This document shows, piece after piece, positions 3,078-33,338 of a stretch of DNA of 64,000 nucleotides. The DNA is from a virus. The DNA is taken from positions 1 to 64,000 of the IMG/VR virus record IMGVR_UViG_3300017770_000005, one strand, 5' to 3'. The notes beneath the pieces are model-generated. The model did no database searches. It saw only the letters and a list, made by a program, of their open reading frames with translations, and had not been told where the DNA came from. A program made the position numbers and the translations under genes. Numbering within the stretch: the first letter of the stretch is position 1; each line of letters begins with the position of its first letter.

Positions 3078-3319
3078 TGCAGGCAGTAATTTATAGTAAC
3101 GGCAGTCAAGAGTGTGAGCGTGCTGGTATGCTCCTTAAGAGTGTTCATGAAGACTTCCATGAATACTTCTTGGATAAAGATTTTACAGACAAACAATTTC
3201 ATGCAGAGTTTGGTAGCAATGCAGAGTATCCGCAGATTTCTATTGGACTCAAGCACCGTGGTGGTCTCAAGGAAACTTTACACTATATGAATACGAATGA
3301 TATGCTCACACATTGTTGA
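3077..3319 (+). CDS. Glutaredoxin-like protein (SxxC instead of CxxC)
   Basis: VIYS..SQEC, YPQI.I...H.GGL glutaredoxin-fold pattern. Confidence 0.75.
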   Translation: MQAVIYSNGSQECERAGMLLKSVHEDFHEYFLDKDFTDKQFHAEFGSNAEYPQISIGLKHRGGLKETLHYMNTNDMLTHC

Positions 3320-4448
3320 AATACCAGATGGCATAGTCAGTATATGCAAATTCAGACACCATTTCTTCTGGATATTCGAGATGATCAACAAAATGATCCC
3401 AATCACAGTCCATAACCATCTCTACAAGTTCATCAAAGTCTTCTGAATAATCGTAGTTCTGTGCTAATTTTTGTGCATACTTCCAAAAAGGAGTATCATA
3501 GTCGGACCCATAAAAATAATGCCATAGAATCCATTGATGTACTTGTCTAACCTTTATATCGTATTTGTGAAGGGCAACTTTCAAATTTTTTCCAGATAAT
3601 GCAGATTCAAAAAAATCATCAATTAAGGTTCCATACATTGGAGTCGCAGTAGACTCTAAAGGTTCATAAAAGAAAATTCTATTACCATTTAATAGAGTTT
3701 TATTTTCAATATCAAAATATTTTTTAGATAGATAATTTTTAAAAGGAACTTTGTGAAGTGTTTCAACTCCAAACATTTCATAGAAGTTCTTTTCTGCTAT
3801 TTCTGGATCAGTAATATCCTTGTTGAAAATATAACCATATGAATATCCATCTTCGAGAGGTATTTTGAAAGTCCAACCATCTGGTGTAGCTATATTTTCA
3901 GTCCATACTTCTGGTGGTCTTGGTTCTTTAGTTCTTCCAATCAAAGCACAGTTTACGGGACTGACCATTTCCTCATAGTCTTCCCAGTTATTAGCAGACT
4001 TCCCTCTACAATCAATTATGATATCAAAGTCATCTTTAATATCTTCTGGAGATACATTTTTTTCTACAAACTTGGTCAAGTTAGTTTTTAAGAAACACTC
4101 TCTCAATCTTTTTGGATCATAGTGATATGCTAATCCATTACCACCTAGTTTGTATAATAGATTTTTATTTTTCTTTGCCCAATTTCTATAGTAGAATCCA
4201 ACCTTTGGAGTAATTCCTGCTAAATTTCCTAGGTCTTCATTACATATTAACTTTGATATTGCATGTGAAACATTTAATGTAGTTCCTTGACCAACAATTT
4301 CTGTTGGAATTTCAGAATCATGAAAGACTGTTATCTTTGGATCTTTTAGATCATGTTCTCTATACTTGAATATAATCATTATCGCAGATATAATACCTGC
4401 ATTCCCACTACCAATGATGGCAATCTTGGGATTATTCTTTAGATCCAT
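3306..4448 (-). CDS. Flavin-dependent (tryptophan) halogenase-like protein, PrnA family
   Basis: IIGSGNAG FAD motif, VGQGT, IIDCRG, GWTFKIPL, FYEPLEST, YDTPFWKY. Confidence 0.85.
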   Translation of the reverse strand: MDLKNNPKIAIIGSGNAGIISAIMIIFKYREHDLKDPKITVFHDSEIPTEIVGQGTTLNVSHAISKLICNEDLGNLAGITPKVGFYYRNWAKKNKNLLYKLGGNGLAYHYDPKRLRECFLKTNLTKFVEKNVSPEDIKDDFDIIIDCRGKSANNWEDYEEMVSPVNCALIGRTKEPRPPEVWTENIATPDGWTFKIPLEDGYSYGYIFNKDITDPEIAEKNFYEMFGVETLHKVPFKNYLSKKYFDIENKTLLNGNRIFFYEPLESTATPMYGTLIDDFFESALSGKNLKVALHKYDIKVRQVHQWILWHYFYGSDYDTPFWKYAQKLAQNYDYSEDFDELVEMVMDCDWDHFVDHLEYPEEMVSEFAYTDYAIWYFNNV

Positions 4449-4467
4449 TAAAAATTCTTATTTCTAG

Positions 4468-4474
4468 TATTTAG
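4468..4474 (-). promoter_or_regulatory. T4-like late promoter (CTAAATA) for the halogenase
   Basis: TATTTAG on + strand, 20 nt upstream of the halogenase start. Confidence 0.55.
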
Positions 4475-4493
4475 TTGCATTATACAAAATTAC

Positions 4494-4522
4494 TTGACTA
4501 AATAGTGTATGAGGTCTATAAT
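4494..4522 (+). promoter_or_regulatory. Sigma70-type promoter
   Basis: TTGACT-N17-TATAAT; predicted start site just before the riboswitch-like RNA. Confidence 0.85.
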
Positions 4523-4530
4523 AGACCTGT

Positions 4531-4755
4531 CGTTCATCCCGAAAGGGACGCAAGTAAGTCGCGGAACGGAGCCGTTCATCCCATGTTAGAAGTACTATTC
4601 TATACAACCCTCACCTGTGCTCAAGCCGATGCAATTATGTTTCGGATGAAAACAAATGAGAACATTCCTGCCGAATATAAGGTAGAATTGATTGAGGTAA
4701 TGAAGGAATCAACCCCTAATTGTTACCCATGGGACGCAAACGACTGAAGGAACGG
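4531..4755 (+). ncRNA. Tandem glutamine riboswitch-like RNA (glnA / Downstream-peptide class)
   Basis: Two copies of CGTTCATCCC..GGGACGCAA..GGAACGG; AGTA/GAA E-loop-like strands flank an AGTCG/CGACT helix; lies upstream of a YRG-motif peptide. Confidence 0.8.
4583..4747 (+). CDS. 54-aa hypothetical protein nested in the riboswitch P2 stem
   Basis: GGAG at 4568-4571, ATG 4583, open to TGA 4747 (MLEVLFYTTLTC...CYPWDAND). Confidence 0.65.
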   Translation: MLEVLFYTTLTCAQADAIMFRMKTNENIPAEYKVELIEVMKESTPNCYPWDAND

Positions 4756-4818
4756 GAAAAAACGGATCCATCGAAAGATGAGAAGGTTCAATTTTCACCC
4801 AACTTCAGGAGTAACACC

Positions 4819-4986
4819 ATGAACACACTAAACATCATCAGAAAGCAGATCAACAAAGCATCTGCTCTTCACGACGCACAGATTAATCACACCTCATATC
4901 GTGGTGTTGAGTATTCTACTCGTTGTGTAGAAAGTAAGGAAACACACGGTACATTCTGCTATCGTGGACGTACTTACAGCAAGTGA
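4819..4986 (+). CDS. DUF4278-like 'downstream peptide', 55 aa
   Basis: AGGAG RBS; two YRG motifs (SYRGVEY, CYRGRTY); follows the riboswitch. Confidence 0.8.
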   Translation: MNTLNIIRKQINKASALHDAQINHTSYRGVEYSTRCVESKETHGTFCYRGRTYSK

Positions 4987-5006
4987 GTTACTTGTATTAG
5001 ACTATC

Positions 5007-5033
5007 AGGACCTGCTTGACAGGTCCTTTTTTT
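5007..5033 (+). terminator. Rho-independent terminator
   Basis: AGGACCTG-cttga-CAGGTCCT followed by a T run. Confidence 0.85.
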
Positions 5034-5044
5034 ATGGGTATAAT
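5016..5044 (+). promoter_or_regulatory. Consensus sigma70 promoter embedded in the terminator
   Basis: TTGACA-N17-TATAAT. Confidence 0.85.
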
Positions 5045-5065
5045 TAGTACAGTAGATTTTGTGCT

Positions 5066-5224
5066 ATGGAAAAGGACAAATTGAAACTAATAGTTCATAA
5101 TCTAGAACTTCTAGTTGATGCTCTGAAGGCAGAAGTATATTCAGACCCTCAGGCATATTTGGAACGTTCTGAGATTAGTGACTATGATGAAATCTTTGAA
5201 GATGATGATGGCTACCCAGACTAA
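5066..5224 (+). CDS. Small acidic hypothetical protein, 52 aa (not in ORF track)
   Basis: Hand translation MEKDKLKLIVHNLELLVDALKAEVYSDPQAYLERSEISDYDEIFEDDDGYPD, directly after the promoter. Confidence 0.75.
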   Translation: MEKDKLKLIVHNLELLVDALKAEVYSDPQAYLERSEISDYDEIFEDDDGYPD

Positions 5225-5251
5225 ACAATGTTAACAACGAATATAAGAAAT

Positions 5252-5431
5252 ATGTATGAATCACTTAACTGTTTTGAGGAAGCACTCAAACACTTTGGAA
5301 CTAGAGTTGAGATGATCACTGCCATGGAGATGGCAAAGAAATTGTCACCTGAAGATGCCTATCAGATGATTAAAGATGAACTCAAAGATGTCAAAAAATG
5401 TCGTAAGCAATTTAAAAAAGATGAACGTTAA
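5252..5431 (+). CDS. Hypothetical protein
   Basis: ORF overlapping thyX start; ATG 5228 is an alternative start. Confidence 0.7.
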   Translation: MYESLNCFEEALKHFGTRVEMITAMEMAKKLSPEDAYQMIKDELKDVKKCRKQFKKDER

Positions 5432-6068
5432 ACTGATTTCTGTAACACCTGAAGCAGAAAAAAATATTGCTTATTGTGCTCGTGTGAGCAATCCTAATAA
5501 TCAGGAGAATGAAAAGATTGCTGGTCTTCTTAAATACTGCATCAATCATCAGCATTGGAGTATTTTTGAGATGGCATTCATGACTCTTGAGATCGAGACC
5601 ACAAGAGGACTAGCAGCTCAGATCCTGAGGCACAGGAGTTTCACATTCCAAGAGTTTTCTCAACGGTATGCTGATAGTTCTATGCTAGCAGATCGCATTC
5701 CTCTTCCAGACTTGCGTCGTCAAGATACAAAGAATCGTCAGAATTCTACTGATGATTTAGATGCTTTCCATAAGCAAGAGTTTGAGATTGCTATCGAGAG
5801 ACACTTTGCTTCTGCTATGGATCTATATCAGACCATGCTTGATCATGGTGTGGCAAAGGAATGTGCTCGCTTTGTGCTTCCTTTAGCAGTTCCCACAAAA
5901 ATTTACATGAGCGGCTCAGTTCGTTCATGGATCCATTATATTGATCTGCGTTCTGCTCATGGAACACAGAAAGAGCACATGGATATTGCCAATGAGTGTA
6001 AGTGTCTCTTTGCTGGACAGTTTCCAGTGATTGCTGAAGCACTTGGATGGACTGAGCATAATAAATAA
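5421..6068 (+). CDS. thyX: Flavin-dependent thymidylate synthase
   Basis: RHRSFTFQEFSQRY (RHRx7SxR), H.SIFE, E.ARFVLP. Confidence 0.96.
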   Translation: MNVKLISVTPEAEKNIAYCARVSNPNNQENEKIAGLLKYCINHQHWSIFEMAFMTLEIETTRGLAAQILRHRSFTFQEFSQRYADSSMLADRIPLPDLRRQDTKNRQNSTDDLDAFHKQEFEIAIERHFASAMDLYQTMLDHGVAKECARFVLPLAVPTKIYMSGSVRSWIHYIDLRSAHGTQKEHMDIANECKCLFAGQFPVIAEALGWTEHNK

Positions 6069-33096: not shown

Positions 33097-33255
33097 CGAC
33101 CAGAAACAAGAGAGTCAATGGAAATGCTATTTTCGGCAAAATGGAATCTTCCGAAAGCAGCAAAAAATTGTGGATTGACAGAAAAGGAAATGAAAATAAC
33201 ATTTAATGAATACTGCTTTTTTCACCCACCCACTTGGGAATCATCGGAAGTGTAG
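33094..33255 (+). CDS. Hypothetical protein, 53 aa
   Basis: MRPETRESMEMLFSAKWNLPKAA...; the N-terminal extension in the ORF track runs through the A-tract repeat. Confidence 0.7.
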   Translation: MRPETRESMEMLFSAKWNLPKAAKNCGLTEKEMKITFNEYCFFHPPTWESSEV

Positions 33256-33338
33256 CTCAATTGGCAGAGCGAGAAGCTTATACCTTCTGTATGCACCAGA
33301 TTAGTGCGCGGTTGTGGGTTCGAGTCCCACCACTTCCA
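33246..33338 (+). tRNA. tRNA with anticodon TAT (nominally Ile), long variable arm, CCA not encoded
   Basis: Acceptor GGAAGTG/CACTTCC+A; D arm GCTC/GAGC; anticodon arm AGAAG-CTTATAC-CTTCT; variable arm GCAC/GTGC; T arm GTGGG-TTCGAGT-CCCAC. Confidence 0.92.

What the first reader, a model, noticed from the sequence alone, without database searches (positions are those of the whole stretch)
4531..4755. Protein-coding ORF nested inside a stem of a tandem, interlocked glutamine riboswitch-like RNA
Seen in sequence: right after a TTGACT-N17-TATAAT promoter there are two aptamer-like units. Unit 1 is CGTTCAT-CCC(GAAA)GGG-ACGCAAGTA-AGTCG-CGGAACG (4531-4568). Unit 2 is CGTTCA-TCCCATG(4579-4585)...CATGGGA(4728-4734)-CGCAAA-CGACT-GAAGGAACG (to 4754). 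In unit 2 the GAAA tetraloop is replaced by about 140 nt. A 54-codon ORF has its ATG in the 5' strand of that stem and its TGA in the CGACTGAAG core, with a GGAG RBS in the linker between units. AGTCG of unit 1 is complementary to CGACT of unit 2 and is flanked by AGTA and GAAG, so the units appear to share one helix. Either CGTTC can pair with either GAACG, which allows tandem, nested or linker-hairpin folds. Established: these elements match the glnA/Downstream-peptide glutamine riboswitch classes of cyanobacteria. Inference: translating the nested ORF would melt the aptamer, while ligand-bound folding would hide its start codon, giving a translation-coupled nitrogen sensor for two small proteins.
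Basis: partly seen in the sequence, partly recalled or inferred. Interest (0 to 1): 0.9.

Follow-up and report, generated by a model that had tools for sequence, protein, structure and literature searches.

The report
Gene nested inside double glutamine riboswitch
In this T4-like cyanophage, a glutamine-sensing RNA switch made of two sensor cores, one nested inside the other, closes one hairpin around a real 54-codon gene, so sensing the host's nitrogen state and translating that gene must compete on one mRNA; I found no paper describing this layout.

Summary
4531-4755 holds two glutamine-I (glnA-type) aptamer cores behind a near-consensus promoter. The long-range helix AGUCG/CGACU (4557-61/4741-45) and the stem closing around the ORF (4579-85/4728-34) both keep pairing through compensatory changes in 118 related phage sequences. 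The 54-codon ORF (4583-4747) is a real gene: PHROG 504, intact in 142 of 143 relatives, pN/pS 0.43.

New here:
- The third base of each CGN junction covaries with the base after a GAACG strand. This fits only the nested fold (253 of 253 for the outer core). A side-by-side tandem would give G·G and C·C.
- ORF-less natural relatives exist. Rfam's glutamine model scores one of them at 46.8 bits across the whole nested span.
- CUGAAG, which holds the ORF's stop codon, alternately pairs with CUUCAG at the Shine-Dalgarno of the downstream DUF4278-like gene (71 G-C, 41 A-U, 24 G·U, 0 A·C).

Glutamine binding, and any coupling between translating the ORF and sensing, remain inferred.

This scan has already reported the same layout on other phage genomes. 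No paper I could search describes nesting or embedded genes.

Verdict: a new variant of a known riboswitch class.

The parts
4494..4522 (+). Sigma-70-type promoter TTGACT-17-TATAAT. The transcript should start about 4529, right at the aptamer.
   Evidence: 11 of 12 matches. Similar -35/-10 boxes lie the same distance upstream in relatives.
4531..4535 (+). Strand a: CGUUC, 5' strand of the outer P1. It pairs with 4750-4754.
   Evidence: Invariant in 118 sequences. The partner is assigned from linchpin covariation and the Rfam alignment of L363.
4537..4548 (+). P2a hairpin UCCC-GAAA-GGGA of the outer core.
   Evidence: All 4 pairs show compensatory changes. In 29 of 143 relatives this hairpin also encloses an ORF.
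4549..4556 (+). Outer junction CGC-AAGUA. C4551 is the linchpin base, pairing with G4755. AAGUA is the 5' strand of the E-loop.
   Evidence: Matches the Rfam consensus aCGGAAGUA. C:G changes to G:C in 253 of 253 sequences. The role of these bases is taken from PMC6698751.
4557..4561 (+). P3 5' strand AGUCG. It pairs with 4741-4745 across 179 nt.
   Evidence: 100% paired in 118 sequences; 3 of 5 pairs show compensatory changes.
4564..4577 (+). Inner P1' hairpin: GAACG (strand b, 4564-68), loop GAGC (4569-72; G4569 is the linchpin to C4737; GGAG at 4568-71 is Shine-Dalgarno-like), CGUUC (strand c, 4573-77).
   Evidence: Both strands invariant. The hairpin is present in the minimum-free-energy fold. 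The inner linchpin is C:G in 239 and G:C in 2 of 253.
4579..4585 (+). P2b 5' strand UCCCAUG. It contains the ORF-A start codon (4583-85).
   Evidence: Inner 5 pairs are at least 97% paired except A-U at 88%, with compensatory changes at 4 positions.
4583..4747 (+). ORF-A: a 54-aa protein (PHROG 504, no Pfam). Predicted two-helix hairpin with a conserved Cys12/Cys47 pair. Function unknown.
   Evidence: phrog_504, E 3.4e-29. Intact in 142 of 143 relatives, pN/pS 0.43, third codon positions most variable. AlphaFold2 mean pLDDT 81.8. Only phage or marine hypothetical proteins as homologues.
4728..4734 (+). P2b 3' strand CAUGGGA. It also encodes Pro-Trp-Asp of ORF-A.
   Evidence: W to E in the protein is matched by UCCUC in the 5' strand in L115 and L153.
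4735..4740 (+). Inner junction CGC-AAA. C4737 is the linchpin to G4569. There is no E-loop here.
4741..4745 (+). P3 3' strand CGACU. U4745 starts the ORF-A stop codon UGA (4745-47).
   Evidence: The stop codon sits at this exact place in 191 of 198 ORF-bearing relatives.
4746..4755 (+). GAAG (3' strand of the E-loop), GAACG (strand d, 3' strand of the outer P1, 4750-54), and linchpin G4755.
   Evidence: Matches the Rfam consensus GAAGGAACG. Covariation.
4744..4749 (+). CUGAAG: the switching segment. It lies in P3 and the E-loop when the sensor is folded, and pairs with 4803-4808 when it is not.
   Evidence: 71 G-C, 41 A-U, 24 G·U, 0 A·C across relatives. The helix is in the minimum-free-energy fold.
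4756..4796 (+). Extra irregular hairpin with a GAAA loop, inserted in the expression platform. Present in a subset of relatives only.
   Evidence: The CAUC/GAUG stem covaries by eye (AUC/GAU, UCG/CGA, AGC/GCU, UGC/GCA). Folded. The spacer is 44-48 nt in these relatives against 16-20 nt in others.
4803..4811 (+). CUUCAG (4803-08), overlapping the Shine-Dalgarno AGGAG (4807-11) of ORF-B.
4819..4986 (+). ORF-B: 55 aa with two YRG motifs; the riboswitch output gene (PHROG 545, weak DUF4278 / IF17-like match).
   Evidence: phrog_545, E 1e-35. PF14105, E 2.3e-4, below Pfam's cut-off. DUF4278 genes are the usual glutamine-riboswitch output (PMC6212724).
5007..5033 (+). Intrinsic terminator: 8-bp stem followed by a T run.
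   Evidence: Contigs from RNA libraries that are identical to the window reach 5033.

Best explanation
This is the 5' leader of a roughly 500-nt phage mRNA (about 4529-5033). It carries a glutamine-I-type riboswitch built from two aptamer cores, one nested inside the other.

Outer core. It is a complete glnA-type three-way junction: P1 (4531-35 with 4750-54), P2a (4537-48), CGC-AAGUA/GAAG E-loop, and P3 (4557-61 with 4741-45).

Inner core. It sits at the far end of P3 and is a circular permutation of the same design. Its P1' (4564-68 with 4573-77) is closed by the GAGC linker. Its P2b (4579-85 with 4728-34) and CGC (4735-37) follow. It uses the same P3 helix from the other side.

P2b loop. It holds a real 54-codon gene whose AUG lies in the 5' strand of P2b. 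Its UGA straddles the P3/E-loop boundary.

Inferred mechanism. Without glutamine, CUGAAG (4744-49) pairs with CUUCAG (4803-08) and covers part of the Shine-Dalgarno of the DUF4278-like gene, so that gene is OFF. Glutamine locks CUGAAGGAACGG into P3, the E-loop and P1, frees the Shine-Dalgarno, and turns the gene ON, as in the Synechocystis gifB leader. The ribosome-landing site of the nested gene (strands b and c, P2b 5' strand) is buried by the inner core once the RNA is complete. The nested gene should therefore be translated mainly before P2b closes. Each ribosome that reaches its stop codon must unfold P2b, P3, the E-loop and the OFF helix, which resets the sensor.

What is shown and what is inferred:
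- Shown: the helices, the nesting, the coding status of the ORF, and the alternative helix.
- Inferred: glutamine binding, the direction of the switch, and the translation-sensor coupling.
For: Helices. P2a, P3 and P2b keep pairing through compensatory changes on 118 sequences; 0 of 500 shuffles reach the observed covariation (variants listed).

Nesting.
- The third base of the outer CGN pairs with the base after the distal GAACG in 253 of 253 unique sequences (151 C:G, 102 G:C).
- The tandem pairing would give 91 G·G and 100 C·C.
- The identity of this tertiary pair comes from the solved glutamine-I and glutamine-II structures as described in PMC6698751.
- The inner pair is Watson-Crick in 241 of 253, with a G:C swap in L323 and L377.
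- Rfam RF01739 aligns the ORF-less relative L363 over strands a to d at 46.8 bits (gathering score 35), with the inner core as a 48-nt insert in P3.
- 52 unique ORF-less versions show that the double core is the base design.

Nested gene.
- PHROG 504, E 3.4e-29.
- Intact in 142 of 143 relatives, pN/pS 0.43.
- AlphaFold2 mean pLDDT 81.8.
- The AUG lies 3-5 nt after CGUUCA in 196 of 198, and the stop lies at the P3/E-loop boundary in 191 of 198.

Expression platform.
- CU[G/A]AAG against [C/U]UU[C/U]AG gives 71 G-C, 41 A-U, 24 G·U, 0 A·C.
- The unconstrained minimum-free-energy fold (-85.9 kcal/mol) contains this OFF helix together with P1' and P2b. The enforced nested sensor is -74.6 kcal/mol.
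- The ON logic and the DUF4278 output gene match PMC6212724.

Expression. RNA-library contigs identical to the window cover 4562-5033 in four runs from two studies.
Against: - No Rfam hit in the window reaches the gathering score: 25.8 bits for unit 1 only.
- All four P1 strands are invariant, so P1 pairing itself carries no covariation.
- The C:G to G:C linchpin swap separates two large clades and may be a single evolutionary event.
- In L323, Rfam scores two side-by-side hits (38.6 and 39.6 bits), so a tandem reading is not excluded where both linchpins allow it.
- The inner core lacks the E-loop, and 12 of 253 sequences have a mismatched inner linchpin. Its ability to bind ligand is uncertain.
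- The nearest-neighbour model puts the sensor fold 11 kcal/mol above the OFF fold. The switch would therefore need kinetic control or large tertiary and ligand energies.
- There is no direct evidence of glutamine binding, of ORF-A translation, or of any effect of translation on the switch.
Confidence: 0.72

Rival explanations
1. The element is a conventional side-by-side tandem: unit 1 (4531-4568) and unit 2 (4573-4754) each close their own P1. The AGUCG/CGACU helix forms between the units as a kissing contact. The two act as separate or pseudo-cooperative sensors, as tandem glutamine riboswitches are described in the literature.
For: - Either CGUUC can pair with either GAACG.
- A transcript ending at 4570 folds with strands a and b paired (-12.8 kcal/mol).
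- The enforced tandem fold without P3 is about as stable as the nested fold (-74.1 against -74.6 kcal/mol).
- Rfam scores two adjacent hits in L323.
- The literature speaks of glutamine 'doublets' (PMC9481103; PMC2864571).
Against: - In the 102 unique CGG-type sequences, the tandem pairing puts G opposite G in 91 and C opposite C in 100 at a tertiary pair that the solved structures show next to the ligand pocket. The nested pairing is Watson-Crick in 253 of 253.
- The E-loop strands AAGUA and GAAG have the native connectivity to P1 only if strand a pairs with strand d.
- Rfam's best alignment of L363 is nested.
- There is only one expression platform.
Confidence: 0.1
2. The nested genes are passengers. 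P2 loops tolerate any insertion, and a compact phage genome has parked small genes there. The riboswitch works as in ORF-less relatives, and no regulatory coupling exists between translating ORF-A and sensing.
For: - ORF-less relatives keep the same double core and the same kind of output gene.
- Several unrelated-looking ORF lengths and sequences occupy P2b, and a homologous family occupies P2a (hhalign probability 93%). This looks like cassette insertion.
- P1' and P2b are predicted to form in both states.
Against: - The AUG abuts the stem in 196 of 198 sequences.
- The stop codon lies inside the sensor core in 191 of 198, in both marine and CGG-type classes, although ending earlier in the loop is possible and does occur in a few.
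- In P2a genes the stop codon is itself part of the stem, and its identity covaries with the 5' strand.
- A terminating ribosome cannot avoid covering CUGAAGGAACG, so some physical interference is unavoidable.
Confidence: 0.3
3. Only the outer core binds glutamine. The inner 'core' is a decayed duplicate that now serves as a structured extension of P3 and as a translational operator for ORF-A.
For: - The inner junction lacks AGUA/GAAG. Its joiners are CGC-AAA and CG.
- 12 of 253 sequences have a mismatched inner linchpin.
- Rfam does not hit unit 2 in the window.
Against: - The ligand-contacting bases named in PMC6698751 (first two P1 pairs, G of CGN, linchpin) are all present and nearly invariant in the inner core.
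- The inner linchpin shows a G:C swap in L323 and L377.
- Glutamine-II aptamers also bind without an E-loop.
Confidence: 0.25
4. The ORF is not a gene. The open frame is a by-product of a conserved RNA.
For: The last seven codons are dictated by the aptamer core. There is no Pfam family and no fold match.
Against: - pN/pS is 0.43, with third positions most variable in the 46 codons outside the core.
- The frame is intact in 142 of 143 relatives.
- Insertions and deletions come in multiples of three across lengths of 49-66 aa.
- A PHROG family exists.
- The AlphaFold2 helical hairpin is confident, with an invariant Cys pair.
Confidence: 0.04

Closest known systems
Glutamine-I riboswitch (glnA RNA motif, Rfam RF01739), e.g. 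the Synechocystis gifB/IF17 leader (PMC6212724)
   Same: - Same core: CGUUCA, P2, CG(N)AAGUA, P3, GAAGGAACG, with an E-loop.
- Same kind of output gene (DUF4278 / IF17-like).
- Same proposed logic: ligand binding releases a Shine-Dalgarno-masking helix, giving an ON switch.
   Different: - P3 is not a hairpin. It is a 5-bp long-range helix that encloses a second, circularly permuted core.
- One P2 loop holds a whole gene.
- The linchpin is C:G, as in glutamine-II, not G:C.
- The window scores below Rfam's gathering cut-off.
Tandem glutamine riboswitch 'doublets' (PMC2864571; 157 doublets in PMC9481103)
   Same: Two glutamine aptamer cores in one leader. Some ORF-less relatives give two adjacent Rfam hits (L323).
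   Different: - The papers describe them as separate riboswitches with pseudo-cooperative action and list them under multiple expression platforms.
- Here the two cores share P3, are nested, and feed one expression platform.
- Neither paper mentions nesting or genes inside aptamers.
Glutamine-II riboswitch (Downstream-peptide motif, RF01704; structure in PMC6698751)
   Same: Same ligand-pocket bases. The CGC...GAACGG (C:G) linchpin is the type found in the window. It occurs in marine picocyanobacteria, the hosts of this phage.
   Different: Glutamine-II forms P1 as a pseudoknot with a hairpin loop and has no E-loop or three-way junction. The window scores 20.3 bits against a gathering score of 33.
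Tandem-aptamer glycine riboswitch (two aptamers, one expression platform)
   Same: Two homologous ligand-binding domains are physically joined and read out by a single platform, which may sharpen the response.
   Different: Glycine aptamers lie side by side and dock through tertiary contacts. Here one core is inserted into a helix of the other. Cooperativity is untested.
ORFs looped out of structured RNAs (homing-endonuclease genes in peripheral loops of group I introns such as T4 td), and leader-peptide attenuators (from my own knowledge, not checked here)
   Same: A coding region sits in a loop of a functional RNA fold. RNA folding and ribosome passage exclude each other.
   Different: The host RNA here is a metabolite sensor. 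The embedded gene encodes a conserved 54-aa protein rather than a nuclease or a throw-away leader peptide.

Membership tests
Glutamine-I riboswitch (RF01739) | P1 formed by CGUUC and GAACG | tested here: met
   Both strands are present twice and invariant in 118 sequences. Being invariant, they give no covariation.
Glutamine-I riboswitch (RF01739) | P2 hairpin directly after CGUUCA | tested here: met
   P2a: 4 of 4 pairs covary. P2b: compensatory changes at 4 of the inner 5 pairs.
Glutamine-I riboswitch (RF01739) | CG(N)AAGUA ... GAAG E-loop flanking P3 | tested here: met
   The outer core has CGCAAGUA (4549-56) and GAAG (4746-49), invariant or with the G/A variant. The inner core lacks it.
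Glutamine-I riboswitch (RF01739) | P3 helix between the E-loop strands | tested here: met
   AGUCG/CGACU is 100% paired, and 3 of 5 pairs show compensatory changes. It is long-range (179 nt apart) rather than a local hairpin.
Glutamine-I riboswitch (RF01739) | Long-range 'linchpin' Watson-Crick pair capping P1 | tested here: met
   Outer core 253 of 253 (C:G or G:C). Inner core 241 of 253. The pair is defined from PMC6698751.
Glutamine-I riboswitch (RF01739) | Score at or above Rfam's gathering cut-off (35 bits) | tested here: not met
   Window: 25.8 bits for 4529-4572 only, and nothing at the gathering threshold. The ORF-less relative L363 reaches 46.8 bits over the whole nested span.
Glutamine-I riboswitch (RF01739) | Selective binding of L-glutamine | not testable with these tools
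   Needs in-line probing, calorimetry or similar.
Glutamine-I riboswitch (RF01739) | Leader of a DUF4278 / IF17-like or nitrogen-metabolism gene | tested here: inconclusive
   ORF-B matches PF14105 at E 2.3e-4, 21.9 bits against a cut-off of 25.3. Relatives carry clear M..TYRGV.Y genes downstream.
Glutamine-II riboswitch (RF01704) | P1 formed as a pseudoknot with the loop of a 3' hairpin; no three-way junction | tested here: not met
   20.3 bits against a gathering score of 33. The covarying P3 and the E-loop show a junction design.
Independent tandem (pseudo-cooperative) riboswitches | Each aptamer closes on itself and has its own expression platform | tested here: not met
   The cores share P3. 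Linchpin covariation fits nesting only. There is a single Shine-Dalgarno-masking helix.

The most novel reading that the evidence does not exclude
The double sensor and its nested genes form one translation-coupled device. Glutamine and ribosomes compete for the same RNA, so the nested protein(s) are made only in a short window before the sensor closes, or when glutamine is low. Each ribosome that terminates on the UGA inside the E-loop erases both the ON and the OFF fold. This lets the mRNA re-sample glutamine and couples the DUF4278-like output to translation of the nested gene. It would be a riboswitch whose aptamer is itself an open reading frame boundary, with two cooperative glutamine sites joined through a shared helix.
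Probability: 0.3. Interest if true: 0.88.

Novelty: new variant of a known kind. Interest (0 to 1): 0.8.

Why it matters
Riboswitch aptamers are treated as compact non-coding domains, and tandem glutamine riboswitches as beads on a string. Here two things differ.
- Hundreds of natural sequences show one aptamer inserted into a helix of another.
- Whole protein genes are placed inside aptamer stems, with start and stop codons forming part of the sensor's helices.

This has three consequences.
- Standard covariance-model scans miss the element, so riboswitch censuses of phages are incomplete.
- It gives a natural system for studying how ribosomes and ligands compete for one RNA fold, and whether a shared helix makes two sites cooperative.
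- It ties a set of widespread, unannotated cyanophage small proteins (PHROG 504 and the homologous P2a family) to the host's glutamine level, the central nitrogen signal during infection of ocean picocyanobacteria.

Tried and rejected
- **Rfam on the window.** The gathering scan found only a tRNA. The E-value scan gave sub-threshold hits to unit 1 only.
- **Removing the ORF for a scan.** I could not run Rfam on the window with 4586-4727 removed, because typed or joined sequence is not accepted. The ORF-less natural relative L363 served instead.
- **Genome-contig scan.** The pattern was too loose for 596 Gb. 118 of 120 returned loci are chance matches. Only L235 and L288, short contigs from MAG bins that look like phage, carry the element. 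I therefore cannot say whether cellular genomes have it.
- **Ames & Breaker 2011.** The first description of the aptamers could not be read: not held by PubMed id or as PMC3127080.
- **Function of ORF-A.** No Pfam family. No named homologue. Atlas neighbours are unnamed. No PDB fold match at E <= 0.001.
- **Metatranscriptome contigs.**
  - No contig lay on 4100-4522 or 5040-5500.
  - One contig joint, 4570 to 4730, had a 24-letter side and depth 3.3. I take it for another strain's ORF variant or an assembly artefact, not RNA processing.
- **Mis-specified fold.** My first OFF-state constraint used wrong coordinates. It was redone.
- **80-aa GTG-started ORF (4505-4747).** Some gene callers report it. 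I rejected it because it reads through P2a, whose length varies by non-multiples of three among relatives.
Full report
**Setting**

The window is a T4-like cyanomyovirus (Kyanoviridae).
- The stretch 4450-5050 matches 420 phage records, nearly all Synechococcus or Prochlorococcus myoviruses, where the two ORFs are annotated as hypothetical proteins.
- Upstream, on the minus strand, lies a tryptophan-halogenase-like gene. Downstream lie small ORFs and thyX.

All motifs are at the stated coordinates.
- A TTGACT-17-TATAAT promoter at 4494-4522 would start the RNA about 4529, two bases before the first CGUUCA.
- A terminator lies at 5007-5033.
- Contigs from four marine metatranscriptome runs of two studies, several of them identical to the window, cover 4562-5033.
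- Rfam gives no gathering-level hit. Unit 1 alone scores 25.8 bits for the glutamine model (cut-off 35) and 20.3 bits for glutamine-II.

**Relatives**

Three searches supplied the comparison set.
- A protein-seeded search returned 80 IMG/VR loci.
- A scan for the linker motif GGAACGGAG(N)CGTTCA returned 120 more, of which 117 have the full layout.
- A third scan, for CGGAAGTA...GGAACG...CGTTCA, found a second large class.

Together these give 253 unique sequences.

**Helices**

On a 118-sequence alignment with the window as first row (A1), the named structure pairs in 96.3% of cells, against 31-54% when partners are slid. Twelve pairs change on both sides, and none of 500 shuffles reaches the observed covariation.
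- P2a: covaries at all four pairs.
- P3, the long-range helix (4557-61 with 4741-45): paired in every sequence. Variants are AAUCG/CGAUU, AGUCA/UGACU and AGUUG/CAACU, plus G·U forms. The changes on its 3' strand are synonymous in the ORF.
- P2b, the stem closing around the ORF: keeps its inner five pairs, with UCCU/AGGA, CCCC/GGGG, UCUA/UAGA and UCCUC/GAGGA variants. Its outer two pairs (the UG of AUG) form in only 55-70% of sequences.
- The four P1 strands never vary, so they say nothing about who pairs with whom.

**Which fold**

The solved glutamine-I and glutamine-II structures place the ligand on the first two P1 pairs and the G of the CGN joiner. A long-range Watson-Crick pair between the third base of CGN and the base just 3' of GAACG caps the pocket (PMC6698751).

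I call the four P1 strands a (4531-35), b (4564-68), c (4573-77) and d (4750-54).
- In the window both CGN are CGC and both GAACG are followed by G, which is uninformative.
- In the second class the first joiner is CGG. The base after strand d is C, while the base after strand b stays G and the second joiner stays CGC.
- Over 253 unique sequences the pair 'joiner a with base after d' is C:G (151) or G:C (102), with no exception.
- A tandem pairing would give 91 G·G and 100 C·C.
- The inner pair 'joiner b with base after b' is C:G in 239 and G:C in 2 (L323, L377).

So strand a pairs with d and strand c with b. A complete glnA-type junction therefore spans the whole element, and a circularly permuted second core sits at the far end of the shared P3.

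Independent support:
- The AAGUA and GAAG strands of the E-loop have native connectivity to P1 only in this fold.
- Rfam's own model aligns the ORF-less relative L363 over a to d at 46.8 bits, with the inner core as a 48-nt insert in P3.

Caveats:
- The swap may be a single evolutionary event.
- In L323, where both readings satisfy the linchpins, Rfam reports two adjacent hits.

**ORF-less relatives**

In 52 unique sequences P2b is a plain hairpin, for example UUCGCUAUU-CGCA-AAUAGCGAA. The rest of the double core and the DUF4278-type downstream gene are kept. The double sensor is therefore the base design, and the genes are insertions into P2 loops.

**The nested gene is real**

ORF-A (4583-4747):
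- It matches PHROG 504 end to end, E 3.4e-29.
- It is intact in 142 of 143 relatives, with pN/pS 0.43 and third codon positions most variable.
- Lengths range from 49 to 66 aa, with insertions and deletions in multiples of three.
- AlphaFold2 on 78 sequences gives a confident two-helix hairpin (mean pLDDT 81.8). Cys12 is invariant and Cys47 nearly so.
- No function could be assigned.

Placement of the start and stop:
- The AUG begins 3-5 nt after CGUUCA in 196 of 198 ORF-bearing sequences.
- The stop codon (UGA, or UAA where the E-loop starts with A) straddles the P3/E-loop boundary in 191 of 198, in both classes.
- The C-terminal Asp-Ala-Asn-Asp is simply the aptamer core read in the one frame that has a stop.

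In 29 of 143 marine relatives, and many of the second class, P2a also encloses a gene of about 66 codons.
- Its stop codon lies in the stem, and its identity covaries with the 5' strand: UCUCAUG/CAUGAGA, UCUUAUG/CAUAAGA, UCCUAUG/CAUAGGA.
- That family is homologous to ORF-A over the Cys-to-Cys core (hhalign probability 93%, E 3e-7).
- The window has only the P2b gene.

**Expression platform**

CUGAAG (4744-49) contains the ORF-A stop and belongs to P3 and the E-loop. It is complementary to CUUCAG (4803-08), which overlaps the AGGAG Shine-Dalgarno of ORF-B.
- Across relatives the variable pair is G-C 71, A-U 41, G·U 24 and A·C 0.
- The unconstrained minimum-free-energy fold of 4529-4835 (-85.9 kcal/mol) contains this helix. 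It also contains a pairing of 4529-4537 with the ORF-B start 4819-4826.
- That fold still keeps the linker hairpin and P2b. The enforced nested sensor is -74.6 kcal/mol.

The outer core is therefore the switching part. The inner hairpin and the stem over the ORF-A start are predicted in both states.

**Mechanism (inferred)**

As in the Synechocystis gifB leader (PMC6212724), glutamine should hold CUGAAGGAACGG in the sensor and free the Shine-Dalgarno of the DUF4278-like gene, an ON switch.
- Because the OFF fold is much more stable on paper, the choice is probably made while the RNA is being transcribed.
- A 30S subunit on the ORF-A start would need strands b and c and the 5' strand of P2b single-stranded. 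ORF-A should therefore be translated mainly before its 3' partner is made, about 150 nt later.
- Every ribosome that reaches the UGA must open P2b, P3, the E-loop and the OFF helix.

Whether phages exploit this, through reciprocal control, resetting of the sensor or coupling to ORF-B, or merely tolerate it, cannot be decided here. I give the coupling about even odds against the passenger-gene view.

**Known or new**

- Sherlock 2022 counts 157 doublets and treats them as pseudo-cooperative separate riboswitches.
- Papers on phage glutamine riboswitches mention neither nesting nor genes inside aptamers.
- Ames & Breaker 2011 could not be read.
- This scan has reported the same layout on other cyanophage genomes. 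Those notes agree with what I found independently.

I class it as a new variant of the glutamine-I riboswitch.

Noticed in passing
window 4529-4537 and 4819-4826: The 5' end GU-C-GUUCAU, which includes P1 strand a, is complementary to AUGAACAC, the start of ORF-B. The minimum-free-energy fold uses this 8-bp helix, so the free strand a may also mask the ORF-B start codon in the OFF state. ORF-B starts AUGAAC in 98 and AUGAAU in 11 of 142 relatives. No covariation test is possible.
   Followed up: partly
window 4756-4796: An extra irregular hairpin (GAAAA/UUUUC, GGAUC/GGUUC, CAUC-GAAA-GAUG, with an AGAA bulge) lies between the sensor and the Shine-Dalgarno-masking partner. It is present only in a subset of relatives, and its GNRA stem covaries by eye. 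It overlaps the neighbouring finding e1-6078063.
   Followed up: partly
L332, L335, L352, L364 and other loci of the CGG-type class (P2a genes): The genes nested in P2a of this class begin MTKALLLLAWVPLLSVS..., which looks like a cleavable signal peptide, followed by a Cys...Cys helical core. The nested proteins may be exported. No signal-peptide predictor was available.
   Followed up: no
L324-L442 (CGG-type class), P3 region: P3 is extended to AGCCGAC[G/U]C with AAA[C/A]GCCGACU. This is a near-palindromic helix (GCCGAC on both strands) with conserved C·A and A·C mismatches and a covarying eighth pair. That fits a pseudo-twofold axis between the two cores.
   Followed up: partly
L363:3805-4007, L363:2684-2774, L330:5813-5907: Relatives' contigs carry a group I intron (87.9 bits) and PhotoRC-II RNAs (77-81 bits) a few kb from the glutamine element.
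   Followed up: no
window 33246-33338: This is the only Rfam gathering-level hit in the window: a 93-nt tRNA with a long insertion in the variable region (61.3 bits).
   Followed up: no
window 3306-4448 (- strand): A 380-aa tryptophan-halogenase-like protein (PF04820, E 7e-27; phrog_2928) is divergently placed just upstream of the riboswitch promoter.
   Followed up: no
window 4505-4747: Public gene calls often start this gene at the upstream GTG, giving 80-81-aa forms that read through unit 1 of the riboswitch. This is probably a systematic mis-annotation.
   Followed up: partly
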